Shown here in pieces: positions 2,133 through 64,000 of a stretch of 64,000 bases of DNA. Numbering within the stretch: position 1 is the first letter of the stretch; each line of letters begins with the position of its first letter. This stretch comes from an uncultured bacterium (GTDB taxonomy: Bacteria > Actinomycetota > Acidimicrobiia > Spongiisociales > UBA5794), in assembly GCA_963801165.1 (NCBI GenBank), contig CAWDDT010000001.1:1917-65916 (forward strand), written 5' to 3'. The position numbers were made by a program, and so were the translations under genes. A model generated the notes under the pieces. That model saw nothing but the letters and a program-made list of their open reading frames with translations, did no database searches and had not been told where the DNA came from.

Positions 2133-2920
2133 CGGGGCACAAGTGGCAGATCAATCGCGGCGAGGGCCGGGTGGTTGCAGCCGCAATTCACGCTGGGCAC
2201 AGTCTTCGGCCGGAGATCGAGGGACGGACCGCGCTCGACGACGCAACCAGATTGCGTGAAGAAGATCCCTTCACGGATCAATGGCTCTCGATAGCGGGAA
2301 CGACAGTCGCCGTGTCCATGTCGAGGTTTGAGATCGACTTGAATCGGCCTCGGGAGTCGGCGGTCTACATGAAGAACAGCGATGCATGGGACCTCCAGCT
2401 CTGGACAGAGGTGCCACCGCCTGACCTGGTCGAGCGTTTGCTCCAGGACTATGACCTCTTCTATAAGGAATTGGCCGAGACGTGCGATGAGGTTGCGGCA
2501 CGTCATGATCGGTTCGTGGTCCTCGACCTGCACTCGTACAACCATCGCCGGCTGGGGCCAGATGCACCCGTAGACTCACCCGCCGACAATCCGGAAATCA
2601 ACGTCGGCACCGGTTCGGTTGACCGCGCTGTCTGGGGGGATGTCGTCGATTCATTTTGCCAGGCGCTCGCTTCGTATCCTTTTGACGGAGGCCACCTCGA
2701 CGTGCGCGAGAACGTCCGATTCAGAGGCGGGCACATGAGTCGTTGGATCAACGAGCGCTACGCCGGCCGGGGTTGTTGCCTGGCGATCGAGGTCAAGAAG
2801 ATCTACATGGACGAATGGACCGGCCAACCCCAGGAGGCCGTGATCGTGAATATCGGCGATGCCCTGATCGCAGCGACGGAGGCGGTTGTCGAATCGCTTA
2901 GTCAAGCGGCTAGTCAGTGA
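2129..2920 (+). CDS. N-formylglutamate amidohydrolase (FGase) family hydrolase
   Basis: 263-aa ORF translationally coupled to the ATP-grasp gene. AAIHAGHSLRPE, FEIDLNRPRE, VVLDLHSYN and INVGTGS segments resemble the FGase family (PF05013) pattern. Recognised by eye only. Confidence 0.7.
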   Translation: MTGHKWQINRGEGRVVAAAIHAGHSLRPEIEGRTALDDATRLREEDPFTDQWLSIAGTTVAVSMSRFEIDLNRPRESAVYMKNSDAWDLQLWTEVPPPDLVERLLQDYDLFYKELAETCDEVAARHDRFVVLDLHSYNHRRLGPDAPVDSPADNPEINVGTGSVDRAVWGDVVDSFCQALASYPFDGGHLDVRENVRFRGGHMSRWINERYAGRGCCLAIEVKKIYMDEWTGQPQEAVIVNIGDALIAATEAVVESLSQAASQ

Positions 2921-4992: not shown

Positions 4993-6630
4993 CTACGAAG
5001 TTTCCTTTCCGGGGCGGGGCGCCCTGTCCGGTGGGTCCTCCTCGATAGGGATGACAGTCGCAGCGTCCACGGGCAACTTGCCCCGTAGCGTCGTGCCGTG
5101 TCCCGGTGTGCTCTCGATCGTGAGCTTGCCCCCGTGTGCCCCGAGACGGTCTCGCATATTGACGAAGCCATGGCTCTCGTCGACCAGGCCGGGATCGAAA
5201 CCGGCTCCGTCGTCGCTGATCTCGAAGACCAGGTAATCCGCGGCCTCAGCCACCCGCACAATGACCTCGGCGCCCGGTCCGGCGTGTTTGGCGGCATTCT
5301 GCATGGCCTCGAGACAGCAGAAGTAAACCGCAGCTTCGATGCCGCGGTCGAAGCGACGATCGGTCTGGATGTCCGCCCTGGTGGGCATCGTGGACCGGTC
5401 GGCTGCCCGTCGCAGTGCCTCGCCGAGCCCCATGTCCCGGAGTAACGGTGGATAGATGCCATGCGCCAGTTCCCGCATCTCCTCGACCGTTTCCTCAACC
5501 TCGTTGCCCAGATCGTCGAGGAGCCGTCCGAGTGTGTCCGGATCACCGGTCTTCAGCTTGGCGAGTTGGAGCTTGACTGCGAGTGCGACCAGCCGTTGTT
5601 GGGCACCGTCGTGCAGGTCACGTTCGATCTTCCGCCGGGACTCGTCGGCCGCCGTGACGATCCTGGCCCTCGATTCCTGAAGTAACCGGTTCTTGGTCCG
5701 CAGCTCCTCCAGCGACTCCTGCAGCGCCGAGTCGAGGTGGACGTTGTGGAGTGCCAGGCCGACCTGACGGGCGAGGTCGGCGAGAAGGCTGTCGTCGTCG
5801 ATTGCGAAGACTCCCGCGTTGTCTTGCCTGGCGACGACGATGAGCCCGAGCAGGTTGCCCAGGTGGGTGATGGGTGCCACCCGCATGTGGATGTCGTCAG
5901 GTGATCCGAATGCTTCCAGCAGCGTGGGTAGCCACATCGACGCCCACGATGTCCCTGAGACCCTTGCTCCGGCGACCGCGGCGAACTCCGCACCGGCGAG
6001 CGTGATCCGTCCCGGACCATGATCCGGGACCGAGGTAGCGCGGTCGAGCCTTCCATCTTCCCCGGTCCAAACCTCTGCACCGAGCGGCGCCATCGTTTCT
6101 CTGAGCGTCTCGGCGAGCTGGAGAAGCAGTTCGTCCATAGGTACCGACCGGGTCATCCGCGCCCCGAAGTTCTGAAGAGCTGCGGCCGCCGACGGTCGCA
6201 CCGGCCCTGCGGCGGAGCGAGTGGCGCTACGCAACCGGGTGCGGACCGGGCCGGCGAGCGCTAAGGCAGCGCCACCGGCGACCATCGACAGCCCGAGCAC
6301 CCGATGCTCTGAGCCGTTGACGTCTTCGCCGAGCCCAACGACGACCACGAGGTACACGGCGAGCACCATTCCCACTAGGCCGCCGATCGTGACTGTGGCA
6401 CGCAGCACCGGCGCTGCCGCCCTCCGCAGCGGCCGTACCCACACGGCGAGAGCGGGGATCGCGATGGCGAAGGAACCGACCGCCCACCAGGAGCCCAGCC
6501 GGTGTGGCGCGTCGACGAGGACATGGAGCGCCCACAGGCTGAACGCCGTAACCACGGCGACGACGATTGCCCACAGCGTCCACAACACCAGGTCGCGTTG
6601 CGGCGTGTTGACGGTGGCGGGTGCAGTCAT
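4993..6630 (-). CDS. Membrane sensor histidine kinase, TM - GAF - HisKA_3 - HATPase_c (NarL-partner type)
   Basis: 545 aa with an N-terminal hydrophobic region of about 4 TM segments and a GAF-like middle. The H-box is ERDLHDGAQQRLVAL, followed by N/G boxes (CCLEAMQNAAKHAG, ISDDGAGF, HGGKLTIESTPGHGT). Confidence 0.85.
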   Translation of the reverse strand: MTAPATVNTPQRDLVLWTLWAIVVAVVTAFSLWALHVLVDAPHRLGSWWAVGSFAIAIPALAVWVRPLRRAAAPVLRATVTIGGLVGMVLAVYLVVVVGLGEDVNGSEHRVLGLSMVAGGAALALAGPVRTRLRSATRSAAGPVRPSAAAALQNFGARMTRSVPMDELLLQLAETLRETMAPLGAEVWTGEDGRLDRATSVPDHGPGRITLAGAEFAAVAGARVSGTSWASMWLPTLLEAFGSPDDIHMRVAPITHLGNLLGLIVVARQDNAGVFAIDDDSLLADLARQVGLALHNVHLDSALQESLEELRTKNRLLQESRARIVTAADESRRKIERDLHDGAQQRLVALAVKLQLAKLKTGDPDTLGRLLDDLGNEVEETVEEMRELAHGIYPPLLRDMGLGEALRRAADRSTMPTRADIQTDRRFDRGIEAAVYFCCLEAMQNAAKHAGPGAEVIVRVAEAADYLVFEISDDGAGFDPGLVDESHGFVNMRDRLGAHGGKLTIESTPGHGTTLRGKLPVDAATVIPIEEDPPDRAPRPGKETS

Positions 6631-6637
6631 CGGTCAC

Positions 6638-9022
6638 TCATTCGGCCCGGAGCACCTGTGCCAATTGGAGGTGGGCGGCCCGCCGGGACGGAGTGACCGC
6701 AAGCAGGTTGACCGCAACGAGTACCAGAGGCACGACCACTGCCAACAGGAGCAGCTCACCGGGGGCGAGATACAGAAGCGGGGTTCGCTCGGCCACATAC
6801 CTCCAGAAAATACGTCCGAGGGCGACGCCGAGGGGAATCCCGGCAATGAGGCCGACAAGGCCGACGATTGTCGCCTGGGTGGTCACGATGAGCCGTGACT
6901 GGCGTCGGTCCATTCCGACCGCCCGCAGCACGGCAAGGTCATGGCTGCGACGCCGGACCGCGGTGGTCAATGCGTGCCCGACCGCACCGAGGGCGAGCAC
7001 GACAAGGAACGCCGCCAGGAAGATCGGCATCGCCCGCACCTCACGCAGTTCTGCGACCTGTGTCGGGATCTGCGGTGTGTCGAGTGGGAGCCCGAGGCCG
7101 GCGATCCGTTCACTTGCGGCCGCAAAGTCTGCACCGTCACGCAGGTCGACGAGCACGAAATGGAACTTGTGCCCGTCAAAAAGTGTGTGATAGGCGTCGG
7201 CGGTTACCCACCCGCCTGAGTCGTAGTCATTGTGCGGTCCGGCGGGGACGAAAGCGATTCCAGAGACCGTTAGCTCACGAGTTCCCAGCGTGCCCGTGAA
7301 TAGAGCGGTATCGCCGACGTCGATTCCGGCGGCTTTGGCAGTGGTCGGAGCCAGCGCGACCTCGTTCTTCCCGGTTGGGGAGTGGCCCCGGGTGAAGACG
7401 AGATCGATTGGCTGATTCACGGGGTCGATGGCGAACAACGATGCCGCGACGTCGTTGACCTGGGCCACATCCATCGGTGTGTCGTTTACGGCCACTACAT
7501 CGGGGTCGGCTTCGACCGCAGGCAGGATCGTCTGAGCATCGGCGAAATCGAAGCCGTTGTATCCGACAAAGCCACCGGCCTCGTAGGTGATCCCGAACCT
7601 CTGCAGATTGTCGACGGCGTCATTGATCCCGTTCGCCAATGTGAATGCGGCGAGCACTCCGAGAACTCCGATTGTGGCACCAAACAGGGCGGGCCTCACC
7701 GGGATCGTGTGACGGCCTCGGCCGGGCTCGAGTGCGAAGCGGGCTCCGACGACAACGGGCACCGGCATGCCCACACGACCGGCTCCGGCCGCGACTGCCG
7801 ACCGGCGTGGGGCAGGCGCGGTGATGAGCCGTCGCATTGTGCCGAAGGCGAGGGCCGCGCCGCCGCCGGTTGTAAGCACCATGGTCGCGACGAAGCCGAC
7901 GCCTACAGCAACGACGTCCGCGTTCCCACCGGGCGCGGGTTCCAGGTACGCGGCGGTCCCAATGGGGAACCACCGCGAGGCGACTACCGCAGCGACCGCG
8001 CCCACAGCCCACCCGGCGAACGCGGCGAAGGTTGGGCCAAGGACAACGGCCGTGCGGGTTTCCCCGGGTGTCATGCCCACCGCACGCAGCGGCTCGAGGT
8101 CGCCGAGTGTCGAGCTGACATGGCGTACCACCGCCTGGCCGACGATGAACAGGGCGGCAACCGCTGCGGCGAGGGCAAAGACACTGAGGCTGCCGGCCTC
8201 GAACCCGGCGACGCTCCGACTGTGATTCTCCCCCTCGCTGAGATCCCACACGTCGATGTCGGAGCGACCAGTTATTCTGGCAAGGTCGGCTTTGAATCGA
8301 GGGATGTCGGCTGCGCCGCCCTCGAGGCGGATCAACGCGTTTACATAGCCGGTGTCGCCTTCGGCTCCGAGGAAGTTGTCCTCGTGTGCGGAGAACAGCC
8401 CGGGGGACGGGATGACCGCACCGGCATCCTCACCTACTTTGTCCGCGAACCAGTACGAGCGGATCGCGCCGACGATGGTGGCCGGGATGGTCGGGCCTTC
8501 TGGTTCTCCGGTGTCGCCGGTCAGCGAGACATCGATCTGCTCGGGAGTGTACAGATGCAGTGTCACGGAGTCTCCGACCTGCATACCGAAATAGGCGAGG
8601 AACTGAGGGGTCACGACAACCTCATCGTCACGACTCGAATCGGGGAGTCGCCCCTCGAGCACGACCGGCCGCTCGATGGTGTCGAATGCCTCGTCGTCTG
8701 TCGACGGGAACCAGGTGCCGATCGTAACCGGCGAAGAGATGCCGTCGATCTCGTAGTAGGTGACCGCAAAGCCGGTGAGGGCGGTCACCTCGGGAAGCGC
8801 GCGGACGGCATCCCAGTCGAAGTCGGGCTCGTTGGGGAGTGCCACCACGTCGGCGGGCAGGGTGCGAGCCAGCAACCGGTCGAGGGCGGTATCGCCCCGC
8901 CGGGCTCCGGCCAGGGCGGTCATGACCGTCCCGGACGCAAACGCCACGAGGAGCGCCAGCACCAGCAGCGACCGCCAACGGTGCCGCAGATCGAGGCGGA
9001 ACCATGTCCATACCGCCGTCAT
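6638..9022 (-). CDS. ABC transporter permease with two FtsX-like domains (MacB/YbbP type)
   Basis: 794 aa. Two blocks of about 4 TM helices are separated by large extracytoplasmic regions. Repeated motifs RAVGMTPGETR and LRAVGMDRRQ are typical of FtsX domains. The ATG overlaps the upstream ATPase stop (ATGA). Confidence 0.85.
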   Translation of the reverse strand: MTAVWTWFRLDLRHRWRSLLVLALLVAFASGTVMTALAGARRGDTALDRLLARTLPADVVALPNEPDFDWDAVRALPEVTALTGFAVTYYEIDGISSPVTIGTWFPSTDDEAFDTIERPVVLEGRLPDSSRDDEVVVTPQFLAYFGMQVGDSVTLHLYTPEQIDVSLTGDTGEPEGPTIPATIVGAIRSYWFADKVGEDAGAVIPSPGLFSAHEDNFLGAEGDTGYVNALIRLEGGAADIPRFKADLARITGRSDIDVWDLSEGENHSRSVAGFEAGSLSVFALAAAVAALFIVGQAVVRHVSSTLGDLEPLRAVGMTPGETRTAVVLGPTFAAFAGWAVGAVAAVVASRWFPIGTAAYLEPAPGGNADVVAVGVGFVATMVLTTGGGAALAFGTMRRLITAPAPRRSAVAAGAGRVGMPVPVVVGARFALEPGRGRHTIPVRPALFGATIGVLGVLAAFTLANGINDAVDNLQRFGITYEAGGFVGYNGFDFADAQTILPAVEADPDVVAVNDTPMDVAQVNDVAASLFAIDPVNQPIDLVFTRGHSPTGKNEVALAPTTAKAAGIDVGDTALFTGTLGTRELTVSGIAFVPAGPHNDYDSGGWVTADAYHTLFDGHKFHFVLVDLRDGADFAAASERIAGLGLPLDTPQIPTQVAELREVRAMPIFLAAFLVVLALGAVGHALTTAVRRRSHDLAVLRAVGMDRRQSRLIVTTQATIVGLVGLIAGIPLGVALGRIFWRYVAERTPLLYLAPGELLLLAVVVPLVLVAVNLLAVTPSRRAAHLQLAQVLRAE

Positions 9023-9723
9023 CGGATTTCTCTCACCTTGTCTGCCGTGACTGTTTTGTCCGCGACCCGGCCGTCGGACATCTGCACGACCCGGGAGGCT
9101 CCGGCAGCGACATCTCTGGAGTGGGTCACCATCAGGATCGTCTGCCCATCGCGGTGCAGTCGTCGGAACAGCTCGAGGATCTCGGTGCCGCCCTCGCTGT
9201 CGAGCGCACCGGTGGGCTCGTCGGCGAGGAGCACGGTCGGCTCGTTGACCAACGCACGGGCAATGGCCAGACGTTGGCGTTGACCGCCGGACAACGATGC
9301 AGGCAGCTGTTCGGTTCGATCGCCGAGGCCGAGGAGATCCAGCAGATCACGGGCTCGGGATTCTGCCGAACGGCGGTTCATCCCACCGAGCATTGCCGCG
9401 AGTGCGATGTTATCCAGGGCCGACATACCTTCAAGCAGGTTGAAGAATTGAAAGACGATCCCGACGTGGCGCCGGCGGAATTCCGCCAACCAGCGCTCGT
9501 CACGCCCGGTGACCGTGAGGTCGTCCACGATGACCTCGCCCTCGTCGGCTGTTTCGAGACCGGCGAAGATGTTGAGCAATGTGGACTTGCCGCACCCCGA
9601 CGGTCCCATGAGGGCCACAAACTCGCCGTGGCCCACTTCGAGATCGACGCCGCGCAGGGCTCGAACGGGCGCCAGCTCCGCCGCAAACGTGCGGCGTACC
9701 CCCGTAGCACTCAACGCACTCAC
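9019..9723 (-). CDS. ABC transporter ATP-binding protein (MacB/LolD type)
   Basis: Walker A GPSGCGKST, signature LSGGQRQRLAIARAL and Walker B LLADEPTGALD. I place the start at GTG 9723, preceded by GAGGAGGAA, rather than at the track TTG at 9831. Confidence 0.9.
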   Translation of the reverse strand: MSALSATGVRRTFAAELAPVRALRGVDLEVGHGEFVALMGPSGCGKSTLLNIFAGLETADEGEVIVDDLTVTGRDERWLAEFRRRHVGIVFQFFNLLEGMSALDNIALAAMLGGMNRRSAESRARDLLDLLGLGDRTEQLPASLSGGQRQRLAIARALVNEPTVLLADEPTGALDSEGGTEILELFRRLHRDGQTILMVTHSRDVAAGASRVVQMSDGRVADKTVTADKVREIR

Positions 9724-9858
9724 GAATTCCTCCTCGAGCAGAACCGACCGACAGCCGGATCGCAGCCCTGGATCATCGTGCGCACAGTCCGCGATCGCAA
9801 GCGTCGGGGCGATGGGCCGGCCGGGCGACAAAGATGGGATGTCCTGGTCATGGCGGGG

Positions 9859-10851
9859 TCAACGCTCCTCACGGCGGTGATCCGCTGCGATCGCAGCCAG
9901 GGTGACCGGGTCGGCGGTGACGGCCCGTTGCACCGCGACCCGGGCTGCGGTCCGGGCTCGCACGGTGGCGGATCGAACGCCGCCCTCGAGGATCGAGCGC
10001 TCGCCGACGATGGCGCCGGGACCAACCTCGGCCACCGTCTCCCCGTCGACATCGACGTCGAAGACTCCGTCGATGACCAGGTACAGCTCGTCACCAGGCT
10101 CGTTCTGGACCGTGATTGTCTCGCCGGCTGCCACCTTGCGGAACTTCGGTTTCGATCGCATCAGGTCCTTGGAGAACTCCCGCTCCACCGGGCTGGCGAC
10201 CTCGGCCACGAGCGGAACGTGCTCCACGCCGTGCCACGGCGATCGCGCGTGATCGTGGATCCGGGTCCAGGTCTTCCAGTCGGTAGTCGCCGTCTTCAAC
10301 GCGAGATCCCCGTTGCCGTCGTAGACCCACTGCCGCGGGAACGGGGAGGACCCCGAGAGCTCGAACACGGGTGTCCCAGTCGCCGCGATGTCGAGGGTGA
10401 GGGTCGACCACGCAGTCGGTCCGCTGATCCGCAGGAAGGGTGGTCGGTCGATCCGGCGCGGTAATGGTGCTCCCGTTCGGCCCCCGGCGGTCTGGGTGAA
10501 CCGGGCTCGCCCGTTTGCGACGACGGGAGGCTGCTGCAGGACGGGGTAGGCGACGCCCGGGAAGGTGATCTTGAGCGGACCGAGATGGGCAGTCGTCGAT
10601 CCTACGATTCCTGTCCCTGAATAGCCGGCGTCGACGATATCGCCGTCTTCGACGTCGATCCATGCCGAGAGACGGTTAGCGAAGCGGATGGCATCGTTCT
10701 CCACGAGTTGCGCAAGAACGTCGCGGTCGATGTGATCAGGCGGTGGTGGGTCGTAGTGGCCGACTCCCATGTCGATCGGGAGCCGTACCATCCCCTCGAT
10801 CGCTTCCGATGGGATCCAACCGAGCGATGTGACCGTCGATTCGTATCGCAT
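9859..10851 (-). CDS. Cyclic-nucleotide-binding domain protein with an unassigned ~230-aa N-terminal domain
   Basis: 330 aa. The C-terminal ~100 aa show the cNMP-binding fold signature (GDELYLVIDG...GPGAIVGERSILEGGVRSATVRA, with GE...RSAT). I could not assign the N-terminal part (MRYESTVTSLGWIPSEAIEG...) to any family. Confidence 0.75.
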   Translation of the reverse strand: MRYESTVTSLGWIPSEAIEGMVRLPIDMGVGHYDPPPPDHIDRDVLAQLVENDAIRFANRLSAWIDVEDGDIVDAGYSGTGIVGSTTAHLGPLKITFPGVAYPVLQQPPVVANGRARFTQTAGGRTGAPLPRRIDRPPFLRISGPTAWSTLTLDIAATGTPVFELSGSSPFPRQWVYDGNGDLALKTATTDWKTWTRIHDHARSPWHGVEHVPLVAEVASPVEREFSKDLMRSKPKFRKVAAGETITVQNEPGDELYLVIDGVFDVDVDGETVAEVGPGAIVGERSILEGGVRSATVRARTAARVAVQRAVTADPVTLAAIAADHRREER

Positions 10852-11000
10852 TGTTCCTCCTCCGGCATCCGTTACGGAACCACTGTTCCGGACGGACGGT
10901 CTGTGGTCCAGGGTGCGAGCAGGCCAATCGGGGTATGGGAAACCCCACCCCGGATCAACCGGTTCACCCGCTGGCGGCCGGCTGATCGTTTGCGCACCAT

Positions 11001-12311
11001 GTGGGCATGACCATCTCGGTGTTCCTGGCCGACGACAACCTCCTCGTGCGGGAGGGCGTAGGCGCGCTCATCGCGCTCGCACCCGACATCGAGGTGGTCG
11101 GCCTGGCCGGCGACTTCGACAGCCTCGTCGACGGGGCAACCGCCGTTGCTCCACAGGTCGTTGTCACCGACATCCGGATGCCACCCGACTTCATGCGTGA
11201 AGGCATCGAAGCCGCCAAGATCGTGCGCAAGACGCATCCGGGGACAGGGATCGTGATCCTGTCCCAGTACGACGATCCCGAATACGCGGTGGCGCTCCTG
11301 TCTGAAGGCGCTGCCGGATATGCGTATCTCCTCAAGGACCGGATCGCCAAAGGCGACCAGCTGGTCAGGGCGATCCGCGAGGTCGCCACGGGCGGCTCGA
11401 TGCTCGATCCGAAGATCGTGGAGGCACTCACCCGTCCGGTGAGCCGGGATGGCCTCCTCGATGCCGACGAAGAGCGTCTGCTGACTCATATAGCCGAAGG
11501 GACACCGATCAAGGGGATTGCGGCCGGGATGAGGACGACTGCGGCCGATGTGGATGCGCGTATCGAGGCGCTCTTTGTGAAGCTTGCCGGGGGTGTTTCG
11601 TCGGGGAGCCATGCTGCGGTCGAGCAACTCCGCAGGCTGCAGCGGGCGATCGCCGTCCGCGAGGAACAGGGTGAGGAACTGTCCCGGCTCCTACCAGGAG
11701 GCATCGCAGCCAGGCTTAAACAAGGTGGTCACCGGATAGGAGATACCGAAGAGCTCGAGGTCACGGTGCTCATGTCGGACATTCGCGGGTATTCGGGCAT
11801 CGCAGAGCGAGCCGCTCCCACCGCGCTCGCCGGGCAGCTCAATCGCCATCGTGCTGAGATGAACCGGGCGATCCTGGCGCATGGCGGTACGGTGATGCAG
11901 TTCGTCGGTGACGCGGTTATGGCGGTCTTCGGAGCGCCCGACCCTGCCGCGGATCACGCCGAGAGCGCCGTCGCGGCAGCCATCGACATGCACATAGCGC
12001 AGGCCCGGGTCAATGCCGAATGGCAGGTGGAGGGCCTCGACGAATTCGAGCTCGGCATCGGGGTGTCGAGCGGCCCGGTCGCAGCTGCGCTCCTAGGCTC
12101 TGAGGAGCGCGTCGAGTACACCCTGGTCGGAGACACCGTGAACCTGGCGCAGCGGCTCCAGCAATGGGGCGACCCGGGTGAGACAATCCTCAGTGAAGCG
12201 ACTCACGCCGGTCTCAGGACTCCACCCGAGTGCGATGCGATCGAGCCGGCTTTGGTGAAGGGTCGCCAGTCGCCGATTGGCGCCTATCGGTTTCCGCCAC
12301 GGGTTCGGTGA
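11001..12311 (+). CDS. Response regulator (REC) - degenerate LuxR-type HTH - class III adenylate/guanylate cyclase fusion
   Basis: 436 aa. REC: FLADDN...VVVTDIRMPP...AYLLKDR. HTH-like: ERLLTHIAEGTPIKGIAAGMRTTAADVDARIEALFVKL. Cyclase: VLMSDIRGYS, FVGDAVMAVFGAP, LVGDTVNLAQRLQ. Confidence 0.85.
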   Translation: MGMTISVFLADDNLLVREGVGALIALAPDIEVVGLAGDFDSLVDGATAVAPQVVVTDIRMPPDFMREGIEAAKIVRKTHPGTGIVILSQYDDPEYAVALLSEGAAGYAYLLKDRIAKGDQLVRAIREVATGGSMLDPKIVEALTRPVSRDGLLDADEERLLTHIAEGTPIKGIAAGMRTTAADVDARIEALFVKLAGGVSSGSHAAVEQLRRLQRAIAVREEQGEELSRLLPGGIAARLKQGGHRIGDTEELEVTVLMSDIRGYSGIAERAAPTALAGQLNRHRAEMNRAILAHGGTVMQFVGDAVMAVFGAPDPAADHAESAVAAAIDMHIAQARVNAEWQVEGLDEFELGIGVSSGPVAAALLGSEERVEYTLVGDTVNLAQRLQQWGDPGETILSEATHAGLRTPPECDAIEPALVKGRQSPIGAYRFPPRVR

Positions 12312-12345: not shown

Positions 12346-12729
12346 TCAGTCCCCCCAGGATCCGGACAACGCGGCGAGGCTCCCGGGCCCGAACTCGGAC
12401 TTCGATATGAAGGCGACCGCCCCGGCCGCTAGCGCCGGCCCGCCATACTCCTTTGCGTGGTGCGTCGACAAGACGATTACCCGGATGCCGCTGCCGTTTG
12501 CCGTGAGCCGCCGGGTAGCCTCGAGACCATCGATACCCGGCATCTGGACGTCCATCAGCACGAGGTCCGGCGCCAACTCGTCTGCGAGGGCGAGACCCGA
12601 TTCGCCGTCGTGCGCCTCGCCGACGATCTCGAAACCGTCCATGAGGTCCACAACCATGCGCAGGGCGGCGCGAAACGGCTCCTGGTCGTCAACGATGAGA
12701 ACCCGGATCGGCTGCTTCGGAGTGGTCAC
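12346..12729 (-). CDS. Stand-alone receiver-domain response regulator (CheY-like)
   Basis: 127 aa: IRVLIVDDQEPFR...DLVLMDVQMPGIDG...AFISKS. No output domain. Confidence 0.85.
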   Translation of the reverse strand: MTTPKQPIRVLIVDDQEPFRAALRMVVDLMDGFEIVGEAHDGESGLALADELAPDLVLMDVQMPGIDGLEATRRLTANGSGIRVIVLSTHHAKEYGGPALAAGAVAFISKSEFGPGSLAALSGSWGD

Positions 12730-12802
12730 GAGGATATCGTCACCCGTGGGCGATTCGTGTGAAAGGAAGCGGCCATGCGTCTCTCGGTGGGGTTTTCCAT
12801 AC

Positions 12803-13465
12803 CTACCCCTGCTCGGCGAGGTGCATCATCACGGCGAGGACCCGGCGATTGGTGCTGCTCTCGGGGATGAGGTCGAGCTTTGTGAAGATCGAGTTGATGT
12901 GCTTCTCGACGGCGCCCTGCGACAGATAGAGCGTATCGGCTATCGCGGAATTGCTCTTGCCGGTTGCCAGTTCGGCCATCACCTCGGATTCCCGCGGGCT
13001 GAGACGGTGGAGCTTGGACTCCTTGCGCTTGAGACGAGCGTCGACGAGTGCATCGACGACCTTGGGGTCGATCATCGAGCCGCCGTTGCAGACGGAATGG
13101 ATGGCGTTTTCCAACTGGCCGATGTCGGCGACGCGTTCCTTGAGGAGGTAGGCGAGACCGGCGGATCCGCCATCGAGGAGGCCGAGGGCGTACTGCGGCT
13201 CCACGTACTGGGAAAGGACTACCACGCCCACTTCAGGATGTGCTGCCCTGATGTGTCTGGCTGCCCGGATGCCCTCGTCCGTCCTGGTGGGCGGCATGCG
13301 GATATCGGTGATCACGACGTCGGGGGGAGATGCGGCGACAACCTCGACGAGCTCGTCGTAATTTTCGGCGACGCCCAGGATCTCGTAACCGGCAGCCTCG
13401 AGGAGCATTCGCACCCCCTCGCGGACGATGAAGCTGTCTTCCGCGAGCACGATTGTCGTCGTCAC
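12803..13465 (-). CDS. NarL/LuxR-family response regulator (REC + HTH)
   Basis: REC: IVLAEDSFIVREG...VVITDIRMPP...AYLLKERV. LuxR HTH: LSPRESEVMAELATGKSNSAIADTLYLSQGAVEKHINSIFTKL. The start is set at GTG 13465, at the REC domain boundary; the track ORF extends to 13582. Confidence 0.85.
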   Translation of the reverse strand: MTTTIVLAEDSFIVREGVRMLLEAAGYEILGVAENYDELVEVVAASPPDVVITDIRMPPTRTDEGIRAARHIRAAHPEVGVVVLSQYVEPQYALGLLDGGSAGLAYLLKERVADIGQLENAIHSVCNGGSMIDPKVVDALVDARLKRKESKLHRLSPRESEVMAELATGKSNSAIADTLYLSQGAVEKHINSIFTKLDLIPESSTNRRVLAVMMHLAEQG

Positions 13466-13605
13466 GGGCCATACGATAGACCGACGACATCCGGGAAGGG
13501 TTGCGGTCAAAGGGCCGGGTCGGGCACGTCGCCGGCTCGGCGTCGGATCGAGCAGCCCGCCCATGGGCACGCTCGCCGTCACTGGTCGGACGAGGGCCTA
13601 CCGGC

Positions 13606-14433
13606 ATGCGCGTGACGATGCTCGGCACCCGCGGGTCGATACCCACACCGGGGGCGCGGTTCGTCAGGTACGGCGGCAACACGTCATGCGTCGCTGTTTC
13701 TCGGGACGGGGAGATGCCCGCGATCCTGCTTGATGCCGGATCTGGCCTGGCGACCGCCGGCCCACTGTTTGGGGAGGAGCCTTTCCGGGGGTCGATTCTT
13801 CTCGGCCACCTGCATTGGGATCACGTCTACGGGCTTCCGTTCTTTGCGGCCGGGGACCACACGGGCGCCCGTGTGCGGGTGCACCTCCCGGCTCAGGGTG
13901 ACCCGTACGAGGCGCTCGCACGTTTTCTCTCCCCGCCGGCGTTCCCGATTGACGTGGGAGGGTTGCGCGGCGACTGGCAGGTGATCGGCCTCGAGCCGGG
14001 GGCCTTCGAAGCGGATGGTTTCGAGCTGCTCGCCGCCGACATACCTCACAAGGGCGGCAGGACCTTTGGGTACCGCATCGAGGATGGGACTACGTCAATC
14101 GCGTACTTGTCGGATCACAGCCCGACGGACCTCGGCATGGGGCCGGACGGCATCGGCGAGTACCACGAAGCTGCTCTGGCGCTCGCCGCCGGTGTCGACC
14201 TCCTGATCCACGATTCTCAGTACACACCCGGGGAACTCGTCGAGAAGATCGATTGGGGTCACTGTTCCTACCGCTACCCGATCGAGCTAGCGCGCCGGGC
14301 GGGTGCGCGGCACACGATGTTGTTCCACCACGATCCCGGCCACGACGACGAGACACTCGACGCTATAGCCGGCCTCATCCACGGAGAGCGCGGTGTCTCG
14401 CTCGCCGTCGAGGGGACCGTGGTCGATCTCTAG
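13606..14433 (+). CDS. MBL-fold metallo-hydrolase
   Basis: MRVTMLGTRGSIPTPG...GGNTSCV...LLGHLHWDHVYGLPFF (HxHxDH motif)...LIHDSQY...LFHHDP. Internal ATG at 13606 chosen as the start. Confidence 0.8.
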   Translation: MRVTMLGTRGSIPTPGARFVRYGGNTSCVAVSRDGEMPAILLDAGSGLATAGPLFGEEPFRGSILLGHLHWDHVYGLPFFAAGDHTGARVRVHLPAQGDPYEALARFLSPPAFPIDVGGLRGDWQVIGLEPGAFEADGFELLAADIPHKGGRTFGYRIEDGTTSIAYLSDHSPTDLGMGPDGIGEYHEAALALAAGVDLLIHDSQYTPGELVEKIDWGHCSYRYPIELARRAGARHTMLFHHDPGHDDETLDAIAGLIHGERGVSLAVEGTVVDL

Positions 14434-14905: not shown

Positions 14906-16303
14906 TCATCCGAGATCTCGAACCGCAGCTCGCGCTGCGTGGTAGCCGCACATACCATGCACCCCCGCACCGGGTGGAGTCACGGACGAACATAGATAGA
15001 CCCGCTCCCCAAGCCGATAGTGGCGCGAGGCCCCGAGCCCCAAGAACCGTCCTGTCGTGAGCGCTCCACCCGCGATATTGCCGCCGACGTAGTTGGGGTT
15101 GTATGCCTCAAAGGCCGAAGTGCCCATTGTGTGCCGTGCGAGGATGTGGCCCCGGAAGCGCGGTGCAAAGCGTTCGATCTGTGTTTCGATTGCATCGGTC
15201 ATGTCGACGGTTGAGCCCGACGGCACGTGGCAATACCCCCAGAGTGTGTGACTACCCGCAGGGGCCCGATCCGGATCGAACAGCGACTGTTGGGCAACGA
15301 CCACGAAGGGGCGTCGCGGATGCTCGCCGCGTTGGACCTGACGCTCCGATGCAGCGATCTCTGCGAAAGTACCACCGACGTGGACCGTTCCCGCGGTAGC
15401 GCTGTGGTCGTCCCGCCACGGTACCGGGGCATCGAGGGCCCAATCGACCTTGAACACACCCGGCCCGGACCGCCACGACCGTAGGCGGCGACGCGTAGCG
15501 GTGCTGAAGCCGGCACCGGCGATCTCCAACGCGGCCGGCGGCATTACATCGAGCATGATGAGGGCACCACGGGGTAGTTCGTCGATGGATCTCACCATCC
15601 TTCCCGTTTCGATCTCTCCACCGGAAGCGACGATGGCTCGGGCCATGAGCTCAGAGATGCGCTGGGAACCGCCCCGTACGAGGGGCCACCCCGCACTGTG
15701 CACAGTTGTCGCAAAGGTCCCGGCCACTGCCCCGGTGAACGGCGCGGACATCGAAGCAATCGAGTGAGCGGCGAGCCCGGCAACGATTCCCCTGGCCTCC
15801 GGCGTGCGGAAGATCTTTGCGAGCACAATGGCCGGCACGGCGCCGAGGACGGCGAGCCTACCCAGGGCGAGCATATCCCCGGGGACCGGTCGAATGGGCC
15901 CAAGCACACGTTCAACCAGGGCATCCGACCGTTCCACCATGGGACCGATGAGCCGCCTGTAGGTCGGCCCATCCGCGCCGAGACCCTGTGCGGTCGCGTC
16001 CAGGTCGTGGTACAGCACTCCGACCCTTCCACCGTCGAGGGGATGGGTCACCGGCACGGTTGGGTGTATCCAATCGATTGGGTCGAGGGATTGGAAGAAT
16101 GGTGACGCCGCGCCAAAGGGATGGATGGCAGAGCACACGTCATGGACGAATCCCGGAAGGGTGAGCTCGGCGCTCCGGGTGCCTCCGCCGATTGAATCGG
16201 AGCTTTCGACCACGAGCACACGAAAGCCCGCCCGGGTGAGCTCGACCGCTGCGGCCAACCCATTCGGTCCCGAACCGACAACCACCGCATCGAAGTCTCC
16301 CAT
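14906..16303 (-). CDS. Phytoene-desaturase-family (CrtI-like) NAD(P)/FAD-dependent oxidoreductase
   Basis: The start is set at the internal ATG giving MGDFDAVVVGSGPNGLAAAVELTRAGFRVLVVES (Rossmann GxGxxG). The C-terminal VYLCSSVTPPGAGVHGMCG is typical of the family. Confidence 0.8.
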   Translation of the reverse strand: MGDFDAVVVGSGPNGLAAAVELTRAGFRVLVVESSDSIGGGTRSAELTLPGFVHDVCSAIHPFGAASPFFQSLDPIDWIHPTVPVTHPLDGGRVGVLYHDLDATAQGLGADGPTYRRLIGPMVERSDALVERVLGPIRPVPGDMLALGRLAVLGAVPAIVLAKIFRTPEARGIVAGLAAHSIASMSAPFTGAVAGTFATTVHSAGWPLVRGGSQRISELMARAIVASGGEIETGRMVRSIDELPRGALIMLDVMPPAALEIAGAGFSTATRRRLRSWRSGPGVFKVDWALDAPVPWRDDHSATAGTVHVGGTFAEIAASERQVQRGEHPRRPFVVVAQQSLFDPDRAPAGSHTLWGYCHVPSGSTVDMTDAIETQIERFAPRFRGHILARHTMGTSAFEAYNPNYVGGNIAGGALTTGRFLGLGASRHYRLGERVYLCSSVTPPGAGVHGMCGYHAARAAVRDLG

Positions 16304-16454
16304 GCCACCGATTCTGGCACCGCCCGTCCGCTCTCGAGACGTGTAGCTGGCAGCGTCGACTCGCACCCTGTCCGGCTGGACTCGCCGGGTGGTCGCCTTC
16401 GCATAATCTCAGAGTTGACTGAGTCGTGTTTCGTCGGAATCGCCCGTTGGCGTG

Positions 16455-33114: not shown

Positions 33115-33147
33115 ACGAGGGGGGGTGGGCGGGCCCACCCCCCTCGT
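33115..33147 (-). promoter_or_regulatory. Strong GC-rich intercistronic hairpin between the binding-protein gene and livG-like gene
   Basis: ACGAGGGGGGGTGGGC / GCCCACCCCCCTCGT arms (one-G bulge) read from the sequence. No U-tract follows on the transcribed strand, so it is more likely an mRNA-stabilising or attenuating stem than a full terminator. Confidence 0.45.
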
Positions 33148-63458: not shown

Positions 63459-64000
63459 GGTGTCCTCGGTAGTTTCAAACGCACTTCGGTCCCTTCGCCG
63501 GGCTCGCTGATGATCTCCGATTCGCCGCCCTGACGTCTCATCCGCCCCCGTAGCGAGTTCTCGATGCCGTGATGCCCGTCCGGGATGGCCTTCGGGTCGA
63601 AGCCGCAGCCCTGATCGGTTACGAAAACTTCGACTTCGTCGTCGCGCACTTCCGCAAAGACCGATACCTTGGCGGTACCCGAGTGTTTGGCGGCGTTGGT
63701 CATTGCCTCTCCGGTGGCGGCCACCAGAGACATAGCCCGTTCCGTCACCGGCATGTCACCGACGACGACCACCTCGACCGGCACATCGTGGCGCGCCTCG
63801 ACTTCGCTGGCGGCGCTCTCCAGGGCCTGGCGAAGACCGATCGGGGCGCTGCCGTCTCTCGCTCCGTACAGCCAGCTGCGCAGATCTCGTTCCTGCGCTC
63901 GGGCCAGGGTGACCATCCTCTTCGGGTCGTCCGTCCGCTGGATGAGTGCCAATGTCTGTAACACCGAGTCATGGAGGTGGGCAGCAACCTCGGTGCGTTC
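63455..64000 (-). CDS. Sensor histidine kinase (HisKA_3 + HATPase_c), C-terminal part; the N-terminus lies beyond the window end
   Basis: The frame is open to position 64000: ERTEVAAHLHDSVLQTLALIQ (H-box)...GEAMTNAAKHSG...VTDQGCGF...GGESEIISEPGEGTEV. The stop overlaps the RR start. Confidence 0.85.
   Translation of the reverse strand, partial: ERTEVAAHLHDSVLQTLALIQRTDDPKRMVTLARAQERDLRSWLYGARDGSAPIGLRQALESAASEVEARHDVPVEVVVVGDMPVTERAMSLVAATGEAMTNAAKHSGTAKVSVFAEVRDDEVEVFVTDQGCGFDPKAIPDGHHGIENSLRGRMRRQGGESEIISEPGEGTEVRLKLPRTP

What the first reader, a model, noticed from the sequence alone, without database searches (positions are those of the whole stretch)
9859..12311. Divergent pair: cNMP-binding protein with an unassigned N-terminal domain facing a response-regulator/cyclase fusion
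SEEN: 9859-10851 (minus) encodes about 230 aa with no motif I can place, followed by an intact cyclic-nucleotide-binding domain (GERSILEGGVRSATVRA). It faces, 149 nt away, a REC + LuxR-like HTH + class III cyclase fusion (11001-12311, plus). The cNMP protein is the first gene of a co-oriented string: cNMP protein, MacB-type ATPase, FtsX permease, GAF histidine kinase. KNOWN: REC domains gate attached output domains by phosphorylation. CAP-family cNMP domains transduce cAMP/cGMP binding to an attached effector domain. INFERENCE: this is a compact circuit in which phosphorelay controls local synthesis of a cyclic nucleotide. The neighbouring protein reads that nucleotide, and its effector domain is of unknown type. 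That effector could regulate the adjacent ABC machine or be an enzyme.
Basis: partly seen in the sequence, partly recalled or inferred. Interest (0 to 1): 0.65.

Follow-up and report, generated by a model that had tools for sequence, protein, structure and literature searches.

The report
Phosphorelay-driven cyclic-nucleotide writer and its reader
Two genes facing each other encode a phosphorylation-switched cyclic-nucleotide synthase and a cyclic-nucleotide-binding protein whose large front domain resembles nothing characterised. The pair recurs in hundreds of mostly uncultured soil bacteria and shares one control site, so it is a real and testable signalling module with an unknown output.

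Summary
Window 9859-10851(-) encodes a 330-aa soluble protein. Residues 1-~215 match no Pfam, NCBIfam, PADLOC or PDB family. Residues 238-307 are a canonical cNMP-binding (CNB) domain.

149 nt away, 11001-12311(+) encodes a response-regulator/cyclase fusion (RRcyc): REC, a NarL-type HTH remnant, then a class III cyclase. The metal-binding Asp pair and the catalytic Asn and Arg are conserved. The substrate Lys is an invariant Gln.

The pairing is conserved:
- 41 of 72 CNB-centred genome loci have the divergent pair.
- 34 of 52 cyclase-centred metagenome loci have it; 41 of 52 carry the CNB gene somewhere in the locus.

New here:
- An 18-22-bp palindrome with flanking -10-like hexamers sits upstream of both genes, even where they are separated.
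- A second copy sits upstream of a stand-alone REC gene next to a NarL regulator. The window has exactly two copies.

The module is therefore histidine kinase(s) + NarL regulator + REC + RR-cyclase + CNB protein.

The ABC/FtsX genes usually follow the cyclase and travel with the kinase. The CNB gene is usually followed by an RNase Z-like metallo-beta-lactamase hydrolase and an FAD oxidoreductase.

The N-domain's only structural neighbour is an uncharacterised Bacillus anthracis protein. Its function and the identity of the nucleotide remain unknown.

Verdict: a real, ordinary-in-logic circuit with a new effector domain.

The parts
10207..10851 (-). N-terminal domain (aa 1-~215) of the CNB protein. 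Beta-rich, acidic (pI 5.75), no known family.
   Evidence: No Pfam, NCBIfam or PDB sequence hit. AF2 full-length model: pLDDT 83.6, pTM 0.84. Foldseek's only credible neighbour is 3c5p BAS0735, of unknown function (E 9e-4, TM 0.45-0.52). D34, R56, R173, Y177, K186, W12, W148 and W195 are invariant in 80 orthologues.
9859..10206 (-). Linker helix plus cNMP-binding domain (aa 216-330, and the stop codon). The phosphate-binding cassette, aa 283-297, is nt 9961-10005. The C-terminal helix ends in HRRE.
   Evidence: Pfam PF00027, E 1.7e-15. PDB hits to PKA-R, PKG and MloK1 cNMP-binding domains. Foldseek hits to CRP/GlxR/PKA cNMP-binding domains. Cassette conservation.
10930..10951 (.). Operator site 1: the imperfect palindrome GGGGTATGGGAAACCCCACCCC, midway between the divergent genes.
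   Evidence: Conserved in 32 aligned loci. nhmmer finds it only upstream of the CNB, RR-cyclase and REC genes. No Rfam hit and no consensus RNA fold.
10910..10915 (-). -10-like hexamer CACCCT, 25.5 nt from the palindrome centre, on the CNB side.
   Evidence: C59, C61 and T64 are nearly invariant and A60 is >=70% conserved in alignment A4. The promoter role is inferred.
10967..10972 (+). Mirror -10-like hexamer CCCGCT (consensus CCCCCT), 26.5 nt from the palindrome centre, on the cyclase side.
   Evidence: A2 and G7 are nearly invariant in A4 on the opposite strand. Sequence read. The promoter role is inferred.
11001..12311 (+). Response-regulator/cyclase fusion. REC is aa 5-120. The NarL-type HTH remnant is aa ~150-200. 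The coiled coil with the LLPGGIAARL motif is aa ~205-245. The class IIIb-like cyclase is aa 250-425. The likely true start is ATG 11007.
   Evidence: D11, D12, D57, S88 and K112 are invariant. D260, D304, N381 and R385 are conserved. Q300 is invariant at the substrate-Lys position. T/S374 occupies the class IIIb Thr position.
12346..12729 (-). Stand-alone receiver (CheY-like) protein, 127 aa.
   Evidence: Pfam Response_reg, E 9e-26. Conserved next to the NarL regulator in 29 genome loci.
12786..12803 (-). Operator site 2: GGTATGGAAAACCCCACC. It overlaps the NarL-regulator stop codon and lies 65 nt upstream of the REC-only start.
   Evidence: One of only two matches to GGTATGGNAAACCCCACC in the 64-kb window (expected 0.08). 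The same position holds the element in L025, L044, L013, L038, L014, L037, L076 and L001.
12803..13465 (-). NarL/FixJ-type response regulator (REC + GerE HTH), 220 aa by the public call. It is 43% identical to the REC+HTH part of the cyclase fusion.
13618..14433 (+). Metallo-beta-lactamase-fold hydrolase (HLHWDH motif), RNase Z/ElaC/PhnP-like phosphodiesterase clade. In other genomes it directly follows the CNB gene. Candidate degrading enzyme for the nucleotide.
   Evidence: Pfam Lactamase_B_2. NCBIfam RNase Z and a weak hit to cyclic-nucleotide-degrading phosphodiesterase. Profile against PDB. Synteny.
14906..16366 (-). FAD-dependent oxidoreductase (amine-oxidase/CrtI-like). A frequent third gene of the CNB-MBL operon elsewhere.
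   Evidence: Synteny.
9019..9831 (-). MacB/FtsE/LolD-type ABC ATPase. The public call is 234 aa, starting near 9723.
6638..9022 (-). Duplicated FtsX/MacB_PCD permease. About 8 hydrophobic segments and two large extracytoplasmic regions.
4993..6630 (-). HisKA_3 histidine kinase. Four hydrophobic segments with short loops (aa 12-129), a sub-threshold GAF-like region, then HisKA_3 + HATPase. Likely the phosphodonor.
   Evidence: Orthologues lie in the cyclase operon elsewhere.

Best explanation
This is the writer and reader pair of a two-component-controlled cyclic-mononucleotide pathway. It sits inside a larger conserved cluster.

Proposed sequence of events:
1. A HisKA_3 histidine kinase senses the input. 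Here it is a membrane-embedded, GAF-like kinase that travels with a MacB/FtsX ABC transporter. Elsewhere two large tandem kinases take its place.
2. The kinase phosphorylates NarL-type receiver domains, including Asp57 of the response-regulator/cyclase fusion.
3. That fusion is a NarL-regulator paralogue. Its HTH has probably become a structural linker. It is joined through a coiled coil to a class IIIb-like cyclase.
4. Class III cyclases are active only as dimers. Phosphorylation-driven receiver dimerisation would therefore assemble the active site and start synthesis of a cNMP. cAMP is most likely, but the invariant Gln at the substrate-Lys position leaves the base open.
5. The nucleotide binds the C-terminal CNB domain of the 330-aa protein encoded on the other strand.
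6. Binding moves that domain's linker and C-terminal helices. This switches the N-terminal beta-rich domain, which I take to be a catalytic or small-molecule-binding module of a new family.
7. That module probably works with the metallo-beta-lactamase-fold phosphodiesterase-like hydrolase and the FAD oxidoreductase that usually follow its gene.
8. The hydrolase may instead, or also, degrade the signal.

Transcription of both genes, and of the stand-alone REC gene, is driven from activator-dependent promoters. Each carries the same palindrome over its -35 region. The cluster's NarL regulator most likely binds it. The same input would then both induce and activate the pathway.

Shown here: domain content, residue conservation, synteny, and the distribution of the shared DNA element.

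Inferred: phosphotransfer partners, activation by dimerisation, identity of the nucleotide, binding to the CNB domain, what binds the palindrome, and what the N-domain does.
For: Domains and residues.
- REC D11, D12, D57, S88 and K112 are invariant in 42 orthologues.
- Cyclase D260, D304, N381 and R385 are conserved.
- Q300 is invariant.
- Alignments to the CyaB, CyaC and Cya2 structures place these residues.

The REC+HTH part is 43% identical to the neighbouring NarL regulator.

CNB domain:
- Pfam and PDB hits.
- The cassette Arg is present in 75 of 81 genome loci and 37 of 38 readable metagenome loci.

Synteny:
- 41 of 72 CNB-centred loci have the divergent cyclase, mostly 150-230 bp away. 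These come from Acidimicrobiia, Dormibacterota, Nitriliruptorales and Aeromicrobium.
- In an independent collection, 41 of 52 cyclase-centred loci carry the CNB gene and 34 are divergent-adjacent.

Shared element:
- nhmmer hits fall only upstream of the CNB, RR-cyclase and REC-only genes, plus one ABC gene.
- This includes loci where the two genes are apart.
- The window has two exact copies (expected 0.08).
- No RNA family and no consensus fold.

N-domain:
- It is more conserved than the CNB domain (65% against 61% mean pairwise identity).
- It has invariant polar residues across 80 orthologues.
- The conserved Gly/Arg/Pro loop at 121-145 has higher model confidence in the full-length model than in the isolated domain. 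This hints at contact with the CNB domain.

Operon context: the CNB gene is followed by the hydrolase in 20 of 36 metagenome loci and by the FAD oxidoreductase in 8 of 36. The hydrolase profile matches RNase Z/ElaC zinc phosphodiesterases and PhnP.

Both proteins are soluble and the kinase is membrane-embedded.
Against: - There is no biochemical evidence of any kind.
- About 28 of 72 CNB-centred loci have no cyclase within 8 kb and no conserved neighbour. Most are Gaiellaceae or Thermoleophilia.
- 11 of 52 cyclase loci have no CNB gene within reach.
- A subgroup has Ala in place of the phosphate-binding Arg293. It makes up 22 of 57 sequences in alignment A1, including L003, L006 and L031, which still sit beside the cyclase. 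Canonical cNMP binding is in doubt for them.
- Gln300 in place of Lys means the product is not established.
- The N-domain has no recognisable catalytic motif. Its one structural neighbour is itself of unknown function. 'Enzyme' rests only on conservation and operon context.
- Assigning the palindrome to the NarL regulator is by analogy only.
Confidence: 0.6

Rival explanations
1. The circuit is as above, but the N-terminal domain is not an enzyme. It is a protein-binding adaptor that feeds back on the pathway. In a cNMP-dependent way it binds the histidine kinase, the RR-cyclase or the stand-alone REC protein, and so tunes phosphotransfer or cyclase activity.
For: - The CNB gene shares a regulon with the kinase, cyclase and REC genes.
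- No catalytic motif or enzyme fold was recognised.
- The stand-alone REC protein has no assigned partner.
Against: - The N-domain is very strongly conserved, with many invariant polar and aromatic residues.
- It keeps those residues in lineages where no cluster genes are nearby. This argues for a partner-independent function.
- The usual co-transcribed genes are enzymes.
Confidence: 0.15
2. One reading: the CNB protein heads an operon with the ABC ATPase, FtsX permease and kinase, and its unknown domain gates that transporter in response to the nucleotide.
For: - The genes are co-oriented and tightly spaced in the window. No terminator-like site lies between CNB and ABC.
- The same order occurs in L001 and L084.
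- ABC/FtsX genes recur in the wider cluster.
Against: - ABC directly follows CNB in only 1 of 41 and 1 of 36 loci.
- In at least 26 of 57 metagenome loci the ABC ATPase follows the cyclase and precedes the kinase.
- Many clusters have no ABC genes at all and carry two tandem kinases instead.
- The kinase has four membrane segments and no sizeable external loop. That pattern fits a transporter acting as the kinase's co-sensor, as in Bce-type modules (from memory), and does not fit a transporter as the output.
Confidence: 0.07
3. The two genes are only co-regulated, not ligand-coupled. The CNB domain reads a nucleotide made by another cyclase, or a non-nucleotide ligand. The RR-cyclase product acts on other receptors.
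For: - Orphan CNB genes exist without a nearby RR-cyclase.
- L004 has a different PAS-cyclase nearby and L085 has a second cyclase in the cluster.
- A subgroup lacks the cassette Arg.
- RR-cyclase loci exist without CNB.
Against: - The divergent arrangement persists across phyla, and the operator is shared.
- The canonical cassette is present in most orthologues.
- Cluster-linked sequences keep the C-terminal HRRE motif. Orphan Gaiellaceae sequences lack it. Phylogeny confounds this comparison.
Confidence: 0.12
4. The CNB protein is a cNMP-dependent transcription factor. Its N-domain is a new DNA-binding fold that recognises the intergenic palindrome, autoregulating itself and the cyclase.
For: - The palindrome lies directly upstream of its gene, in a divergent layout typical of autoregulated regulators.
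- CRP-family proteins combine a cNMP-binding domain with DNA binding.
Against: - There is no HTH, and the N-domain is acidic (pI 5.75).
- The element is absent upstream of CNB genes in 35 of the 36 loci that lack the cyclase cluster. The exception, L010, is a contig too short to judge.
- It is present upstream of the REC gene next to a bona fide GerE-HTH regulator.
Confidence: 0.04
5. A Pycsar-like anti-phage system: a cyclase makes a cyclic pyrimidine on infection, and a CNB-domain effector kills or arrests the cell.
For: - PADLOC PycC and PycTIR models hit the cyclase domain (E 3e-22) and the CNB domain (E 4e-11).
- The unusual substrate residue Gln300 leaves pyrimidine products possible.
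Against: - The hits cover only the generic domains and score no better than the general Pfam models.
- The effector has no TIR domain and no membrane segment.
- The cyclase is under two-component control and is 70-88% identical across its 120 closest database relatives.
- The cluster sits in conserved chromosomal context across phyla. That is unlike patchy, fast-evolving defence islands.
Confidence: 0.02

Closest known systems
REC-GGDEF response regulators (PleD, DgcR)
   Same: A receiver domain is fused through a helical linker to a nucleotide cyclase that works only as a dimer. Phosphorylation rearranges the dimer and switches synthesis on (PMC8041772). The expected logic here is the same.
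   Different: The output here is a class III mononucleotide cyclase, not GGDEF. A vestigial NarL-type HTH lies between the receiver and the coiled coil. The product is a cNMP, not c-di-GMP.
Cyanobacterial CyaC and Dictyostelium ACR (receiver domains joined to class III cyclases)
   Same: Receiver domains control a class IIIb cyclase in the same polypeptide (ACR: PMC3009899; CyaC from memory). The cyclase domain aligns best to the CyaB, CyaC and Cya2 structures.
   Different: Those are large hybrid proteins with their own kinase domain. This one is a simple 434-aa regulator, a paralogue of the neighbouring NarL regulator. It has Gln in place of the substrate Lys.
Mycobacterium tuberculosis Rv0386 cyclase
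   Same: From memory (Castro et al. 2005): Gln replaces the canonical substrate Lys, and the enzyme makes cAMP with some cGMP. It also combines a class III cyclase with a LuxR-type HTH in one protein.
   Different: Rv0386 has Gln/Asn, an ATPase/TPR region and a C-terminal HTH, and no receiver domain. Here the pair is Gln/Thr(Ser) and the order is REC-HTH-cyclase. The similarity was not tested by direct alignment.
Mycobacterial cAMP-regulated acetyltransferase Pat (Rv0998 / MSMEG_5458)
   Same: One soluble polypeptide in which a CNB domain allosterically controls an attached enzyme domain. NCBIfam's Pat model gives a weak hit to the CNB domain.
   Different: In Pat the CNB domain is N-terminal and the effector is a known GNAT fold. 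Here the CNB domain is C-terminal and the effector domain has no known family.
Pycsar (PycC cyclase + cNMP-binding effector)
   Same: A two-gene logic of a class III-like cyclase plus an effector carrying a CNB domain. PADLOC models hit both generic domains.
   Different: There is no TIR or membrane effector. The cyclase is under two-component control. Both proteins are highly conserved and chromosomally syntenic, with no defence-island context.
DosR/DevR-type NarL-family regulons
   Same: A NarL-family regulator of Actinomycetota that recognises ~20-bp G/C-rich palindromes with an A/T centre, overlapping the -35 region of the promoters it activates (from memory). The element here has that form and position.
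   Different: The sequence differs (GGGGTGGGG-N3-5-CCACACCC). Binding by the cluster's regulator is untested.
BAS0735 of Bacillus anthracis (PDB 3c5p)
   Same: The only structural neighbour of the N-domain model: Foldseek probability 1.00, TM 0.45-0.52, about 15% identity.
   Different: It is itself of unknown function. The match is weak, with no sequence similarity and no CNB domain.

Membership tests
cNMP-binding domain (CAP/PKA-R type, PF00027) | Sequence match above the curated threshold | tested here: met
   57.2 bits against a cut-off of 27.5, residues 238-307. PDB hits to PKG, PKA-R and MloK1 down to E 5e-14.
cNMP-binding domain (CAP/PKA-R type, PF00027) | Phosphate-binding cassette with Gly-Glu ... 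Arg-Ser/Thr-Ala | tested here: met
   G283, E284 ... R293, S294, A295 in the window. Arg is present in 75 of 81 genome loci. A subgroup, 22 of 57 in alignment A1, has Ala.
cNMP-binding domain (CAP/PKA-R type, PF00027) | Actual binding of cAMP or cGMP | not testable with these tools
   Needs ITC, DRaCALA or a crystal soak.
CRP/FNR transcription factors | C-terminal helix-turn-helix DNA-binding domain after the cNMP-binding domain | tested here: not met
   The protein ends 20 residues after the CNB domain. There is no HTH_Crp hit. CRP matches only over the cNMP-binding part.
Class III nucleotidyl cyclase (PF00211) | Sequence match above the threshold, and the two metal-binding Asp residues | tested here: met
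   88.2 bits against a cut-off of 21.9. D260 and D304 align with the metal Asp residues of CyaB and CyaC and are conserved in 42 orthologues.
Class III nucleotidyl cyclase (PF00211) | Transition-state Asn and Arg | tested here: met
   N381 and R385 in VNLAQR are invariant.
Class III adenylyl cyclase, subclass IIIb | Substrate-specifying Lys paired with Thr | tested here: not met
   Thr/Ser374 is present, but the Lys position is Gln300, invariant in 42 orthologues. CyaB and CyaC have Lys there and the guanylyl cyclase Cya2 has Glu. The product is therefore unassigned.
NarL/FixJ response regulators | Receiver domain with acidic pocket, phospho-acceptor Asp, Ser/Thr and Lys | tested here: met
   D11, D12, D57, S88 and K112 are invariant. 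Pfam Response_reg scores 49.9 bits.
NarL/FixJ response regulators | Functional GerE/LuxR-type HTH output domain | tested here: inconclusive
   NCBIfam NarL and MctR models align to residue ~196, and the scaffold aligns with the neighbouring regulator. Pfam GerE does not reach E 0.01. The recognition helix carries conserved acidic residues D183, D185 and E189.
Pycsar anti-phage system | Effector with a cNMP-binding domain fused to a TIR or transmembrane killing domain | tested here: not met
   No TIR hit, no hydrophobic segment. The PADLOC hit covers only residues 233-305.
Pycsar anti-phage system | Cyclase that makes cCMP or cUMP | not testable with these tools
   Needs a product assay.
Metallo-beta-lactamase-fold cyclic-nucleotide phosphodiesterase (for the neighbouring hydrolase) | Match to a curated cyclic-nucleotide phosphodiesterase model | tested here: not met
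   NF041851 scores 32.7 bits against a cut-off of 400, over the first 69 profile positions only. The best relatives are RNase Z/ElaC. The HxHxDH metal motif is intact. This is a candidate only.

The most novel reading that the evidence does not exclude
The ~215-residue N-terminal domain founds a new family of cyclic-nucleotide-gated enzymes or small-molecule-handling modules. It would be the main output of a two-component -> cNMP pathway spread across uncultured soil Actinomycetota and Dormibacterota. It would work with an RNase Z-like hydrolase and an FAD oxidoreductase on a metabolite not yet linked to cNMP signalling. The writer would be a cyclase whose invariant Gln gives it an unusual nucleotide specificity.
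Probability: 0.3. Interest if true: 0.75.

Novelty: new variant of a known kind. Interest (0 to 1): 0.55.

Why it matters
Few effector types are known for bacterial cAMP/cGMP: CRP-type regulators, the Pat acetyltransferase, channels, and a few others.

This is a compact, soluble receptor family of ~330 aa. It occurs in at least 593 species and forms about 1300 clusters at 50% identity. Its output domain matches nothing characterised. It comes with an obvious dedicated writer, a candidate degrading enzyme, a likely transcriptional regulator and a defined operator.

That makes the pathway unusually testable end to end. It could add a new output class to cyclic-nucleotide signalling in lineages that are abundant in soil and barely studied.

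The REC-HTH remnant-cyclase fusion is also a clear example of a DNA-binding regulator converted into a second-messenger synthase.

Tried and rejected
N-domain searches that found nothing:
- Pfam at E<=10, NCBIfam and PADLOC.
- PDB sequence and profile searches. Only chance-level hits at E 0.3-1.7.
- Foldseek of the full-length model returned only cNMP-binding domains.
- Foldseek of the isolated domain gave one weak neighbour of unknown function in PDB and nothing in BFVD.

Literature searches for BAS0735, for 3C5P, and for the gene combination returned nothing useful.

The ORF 12407-13615(+), 402 aa with no family, is rejected as a gene. It is the antisense shadow of two receiver genes.

An RNA reading of the intergenic element is rejected:
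- No Rfam hit.
- RNAalifold finds no consensus structure.
- Single-sequence fold z-scores are only -1.8 and -2.1.
- The symmetry shifts register between loci. It is better described as paired half-sites with -10-like hexamers.

Neighbours of the CNB gene in the 36 loci without the cyclase were scanned as a set. No family recurs in more than 4 of 129 proteins, so they give no functional lead.

Odd-length N-domain proteins were scanned. Most are N-domain + CNB. The few other fusions (TrkA_N, Mpo1-like) are single cases and may be gene-calling artefacts.

An early conclusion that ABC genes are almost never in the cluster was corrected. It came from the genome set with a 55% identity cut. The metagenome set shows the ABC ATPase commonly downstream of the cyclase.

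The FAD oxidoreductase matched PDB entries only through its dinucleotide-binding motif.

Full report
**1. What is at the coordinates**

The ORF list and translations confirm two divergent genes.

Window 9859-10851(-) encodes 330 aa.
- Pfam places a cNMP-binding (CNB) domain at residues 238-307 (E 1.7e-15, above the curated threshold).
- The quoted GERSILEGGVRSATVRA is its phosphate-binding cassette.
- Residues 1-222 match nothing: no Pfam model even at E<=10, no NCBIfam model, no PDB sequence or profile.
- The protein has no hydrophobic segment. Its N-terminal part is acidic, pI 5.75.

Window 11001-12311(+) encodes 436 aa; the public call is 434 aa from ATG 11007.
- It has a receiver domain at 7-107 and a class III cyclase domain at 253-424.
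- NarL/MctR-type full-length regulator models align through residue ~196.
- Residues 4-195 are 43% identical to the NarL-type regulator encoded 500 nt further on.
- The protein is therefore a NarL-regulator paralogue with a cyclase attached.
- Pfam GerE does not score. The recognition-helix positions carry conserved acidic residues D183, D185 and E189. I therefore regard the HTH as a structural remnant, with moderate confidence.

**2. Is the cyclase alive, and is the receiver real?**

Forty-two orthologues were extracted from related loci.
- The receiver's acidic pocket (D11, D12), phospho-acceptor D57, S88 and K112 are invariant.
- Alignment to the solved cyclases CyaB (3r5g), CyaC (1wc0) and Cya2 (2w01) places D260 and D304 at the metal-binding positions. 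It places N381 and R385 at the transition-state positions. All four are conserved.
- The class IIIb Thr position holds Thr or Ser.
- The substrate-specifying Lys (Glu in the guanylyl cyclase Cya2) is an invariant Gln300.

The enzyme is not dead. Its product cannot be read from sequence. From memory, Mycobacterium tuberculosis Rv0386 also has Gln there and makes mainly cAMP with some cGMP.

The segment before the cyclase, ...EEQGEELSRLLPGGIAARLK, resembles the coiled coil plus cyclase-transducer element of class IIIa/b cyclases. This is from memory and was not tested.

**3. The family and its structure**

The CNB protein belongs to a large family of constant length.
- The best 120 database relatives are almost all ~330 aa with the same architecture.
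- At least 593 species in the genome collection encode it. They include Acidimicrobiia, Gaiellaceae/Thermoleophilia, Dormibacterota, Nitriliruptorales, an Aeromicrobium MAG and the cultured Nocardioides islandensis.
- A profile of the N-domain alone finds 1304 clusters at 50% identity. Those scanned are nearly all N-domain + CNB.
- The N-domain is more conserved than the CNB domain: 65% against 61% mean pairwise identity.
- Across 80 orthologues it keeps D34, R56, R173, Y177, K186, W12, W148 and W195 invariant. S15, Y33, N59, T86, Q120, R125, R132, H174 and D191 are nearly invariant.

AlphaFold2 gives a confident full-length model (pLDDT 83.6, pTM 0.84).
- The N-domain is a beta meander with three short helices.
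- The most conserved stretch, TAGGRTGAPLPRRIDRPP, is a loop. Its confidence is below 50 in the isolated domain and 66-76 in the full-length model. This weakly hints that it contacts the CNB domain.

Foldseek results:
- The full-length model finds only cNMP-binding domains.
- The isolated domain finds one credible neighbour, 3c5p BAS0735 of Bacillus anthracis (E 9e-4, TM 0.45-0.52). It is itself of unknown function.
- Nothing was found among viral models.

**4. Synteny, tested in both directions**

Centred on the CNB gene (80 genome loci):
- 41 of the 72 loci with enough upstream sequence have the orthologous RR-cyclase (60-90% identical), divergent and mostly 150-230 bp away. Three more have it nearby.
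- The rest, mainly Gaiellaceae and Thermoleophilia, have no cyclase within 8 kb. They also have no recurrent neighbour of any kind.

Centred on the cyclase (80 metagenome loci from an independent collection):
- 41 of 52 loci with enough upstream sequence carry the CNB gene.
- 34 of the 52 are divergent-adjacent.

The RR-cyclase family is large and very conserved. It is ~434 aa and 70-88% identical among the best 120 relatives.

**5. The real neighbourhood**

The 402-aa ORF right of the cyclase is an antisense shadow. The genes there are a stand-alone receiver, 12346-12729(-), and a NarL-type regulator, 12803-13465(-).

These two genes plus one or two HisKA_3 kinases accompany the RR-cyclase almost everywhere.

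Two layouts recur:
- RRcyc-kinase-kinase.
- RRcyc-ABC ATPase-permease-kinase. The ABC gene is next to the cyclase in at least 26 of 57 metagenome loci and 3 of 36 genome loci.

In the window, in L001 and in L084, the ABC-FtsX-kinase block sits behind the CNB gene instead. That is rare: 1 of 41 and 1 of 36 loci.

The kinase here has four hydrophobic segments with short loops and only a sub-threshold GAF-like region. The permease has two large extracytoplasmic regions. The transporter therefore looks like a partner of the kinase, possibly a co-sensor as in Bce-type modules (from memory). It does not look like a target of the CNB protein.

What usually follows the CNB gene:
- A metallo-beta-lactamase-fold hydrolase: 20 of 36 metagenome loci and 14 of 41 genome loci. 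It is sometimes start-to-stop coupled, as in L081.
- An FAD oxidoreductase: next in 8 of 36 and 5 of 41 loci.

In the window these two genes lie at 13618-14433(+) and 14906-16366(-), displaced by a rearrangement.

The hydrolase keeps the HxHxDH motif. Its closest relatives are RNase Z/ElaC zinc phosphodiesterases and PhnP. A curated cyclic-nucleotide phosphodiesterase model gives only a weak partial hit. It is a candidate degrading enzyme, no more.

**6. A shared control element**

The 149-nt spacer contains a conserved symmetric element.
- The centre is a palindrome at window 10930-10951, GGGGTATGGGAAACCCCACCCC. The consensus is GGGGTGGGG-N3-5-CCACACCC.
- About 26 nt to each side lie mirror hexamers: CACCCT toward the CNB gene and CCCGCT/CCCCCT toward the cyclase. 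Their A and T at hexamer positions 2 and 6 are the best-kept bases.

It is not a known RNA and has no consensus fold.

A profile of the element finds it only in three kinds of place:
- Upstream of CNB genes.
- Upstream of RR-cyclase genes.
- As palindrome plus one hexamer, upstream of the stand-alone REC gene, in the gap after the NarL regulator. There is also one hit upstream of an ABC gene.

It is present upstream of the cyclase where no CNB gene is adjacent (L087, L150, L156, L163). It is present upstream of the CNB gene where the cyclase is hundreds or thousands of bases away (L089, L105, L107, L132). It is absent from orphan CNB loci.

The window holds exactly two matches to GGTATGGNAAACCCCACC, at 10932-10949 and 12786-12803, against 0.08 expected.

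The geometry fits a dimeric activator. The palindrome centre lies about 38-41 nt upstream of the inferred transcript starts, and the -10 hexamers are weak. One bound dimer could drive both divergent promoters.

The NarL-type regulator of the cluster is the obvious candidate, by analogy with DosR-type boxes (from memory). This is inference. What is shown is that the CNB gene and the cyclase gene carry the same rare element whether or not they are neighbours. That is independent evidence that they work together.

**7. How it most likely works**

Kinase input leads to phosphorylation of the NarL regulator, which induces the regulon. It also leads to phosphorylation of the RR-cyclase. Receiver dimerisation then assembles the obligate-dimer cyclase, as in REC-GGDEF enzymes (PMC8041772). 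The cNMP binds the CNB domain. The invariant linker residues E223 and R224 and the conserved C-terminal HRRE helix relay the change to the N-domain.

I commit to the N-domain being a catalytic or small-molecule-binding module. The grounds are:
- Very strong conservation.
- Invariant polar residues.
- The conserved flexible Gly/Arg loop.
- Persistence in genomes without the cluster.
- Co-transcription with two enzymes.

This is the weakest step.

**8. Points against**

- Orphan readers and reader-less writers exist.
- A sizeable subgroup, 22 of 57 sequences in alignment A1, replaces the phosphate-binding Arg293 by Ala. It keeps the unusual, nearly invariant Arg285 of the GER motif and, in the loci checked, still neighbours the cyclase.
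- The product is unassigned.
- Nothing has been measured.

**9. Comparison and novelty**

The logic of a response regulator with a nucleotide-cyclase output, and of a CNB domain gating an attached domain, is well known.

New elements:
- The effector domain family.
- The REC-HTH remnant-cyclase architecture with an invariant Gln.
- The definition of the conserved cluster and its operator.

A Pycsar reading is unlikely. Only the generic domains hit. There is no TIR or membrane effector. Both proteins are strongly conserved and chromosomally syntenic.

I rate this a new variant of a known kind, of moderate-to-good interest mainly because it is so directly testable.

Noticed in passing
window 12407-13615 (+): A 402-aa ORF with no family is an antisense shadow of two real minus-strand genes: the stand-alone REC gene at 12346-12729 and the NarL regulator at 12803-13465. 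tblastn 'conservation' of this ORF in other loci mirrors those genes.
   Followed up: yes
window 10930-10951 and 12786-12803; loci L001-L167: A conserved palindrome with -10-like hexamers marks the promoters of the CNB, RR-cyclase and REC-only genes across phyla. It is probably the operator of the cluster's NarL regulator. There are two exact 18-mer copies in the window.
   Followed up: partly
A1 alignment; L003, L006, L031: A subgroup of the CNB family has Ala in place of the phosphate-binding Arg293 (motif ATATV). It still sits beside the RR-cyclase. Arg285 in the unusual GER motif is nearly invariant and might compensate.
   Followed up: partly
window 13618-14433 (+) and 14906-16366 (-); L081 10994-11842; many loci: An RNase Z-like metallo-beta-lactamase hydrolase and an amine-oxidase/CrtI-like FAD oxidoreductase usually form an operon with the CNB gene elsewhere. 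In the window they are displaced to the far side of the cluster.
   Followed up: partly
window 2910-4805 (-): A MATCAP / QEGLA-motif protein (Pfam E 3e-88; TIGR02421 at 335.6 bits, just under its 338.65 cut-off) lies directly downstream of the histidine kinase. Its relation to the cluster is unknown.
   Followed up: no
window 62877-63709 (-): A second NarL-type response regulator and the end of a HisKA_3-type kinase lie near the window's right edge. tblastn identities to the cluster proteins are 31% and 45%.
   Followed up: no
window 33120-33143 (+): A G/C-rich palindrome, GGGGGGTGGGCGGGCCCACCCCCC, loosely resembles the operator (2 mismatches to a degenerate pattern). It is probably unrelated, for example a terminator stem.
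   Followed up: no
L001 (CAVZRA010000004.1) 6542-8990: In the closest genome relative, both the CNB gene and the RR-cyclase gene appear frameshifted (split tblastn hits; the CNB reading frame stops after 69 aa). These are likely long-read assembly indels, not pseudogenes.
   Followed up: no
L085 13756-15308; L004 5287-6654: Some related loci carry a second, different class III cyclase nearby (TPR-cyclase, PAS-cyclase). This suggests wider cNMP networks in these genomes.
   Followed up: no
P0142, P0223, P0256: Rare proteins join the N-domain to other modules: an Mpo1-like dioxygenase after the CNB domain, TrkA_N before the N-domain, and a 300-aa unassigned tail. They may be gene-calling fusions or real variants.
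   Followed up: no
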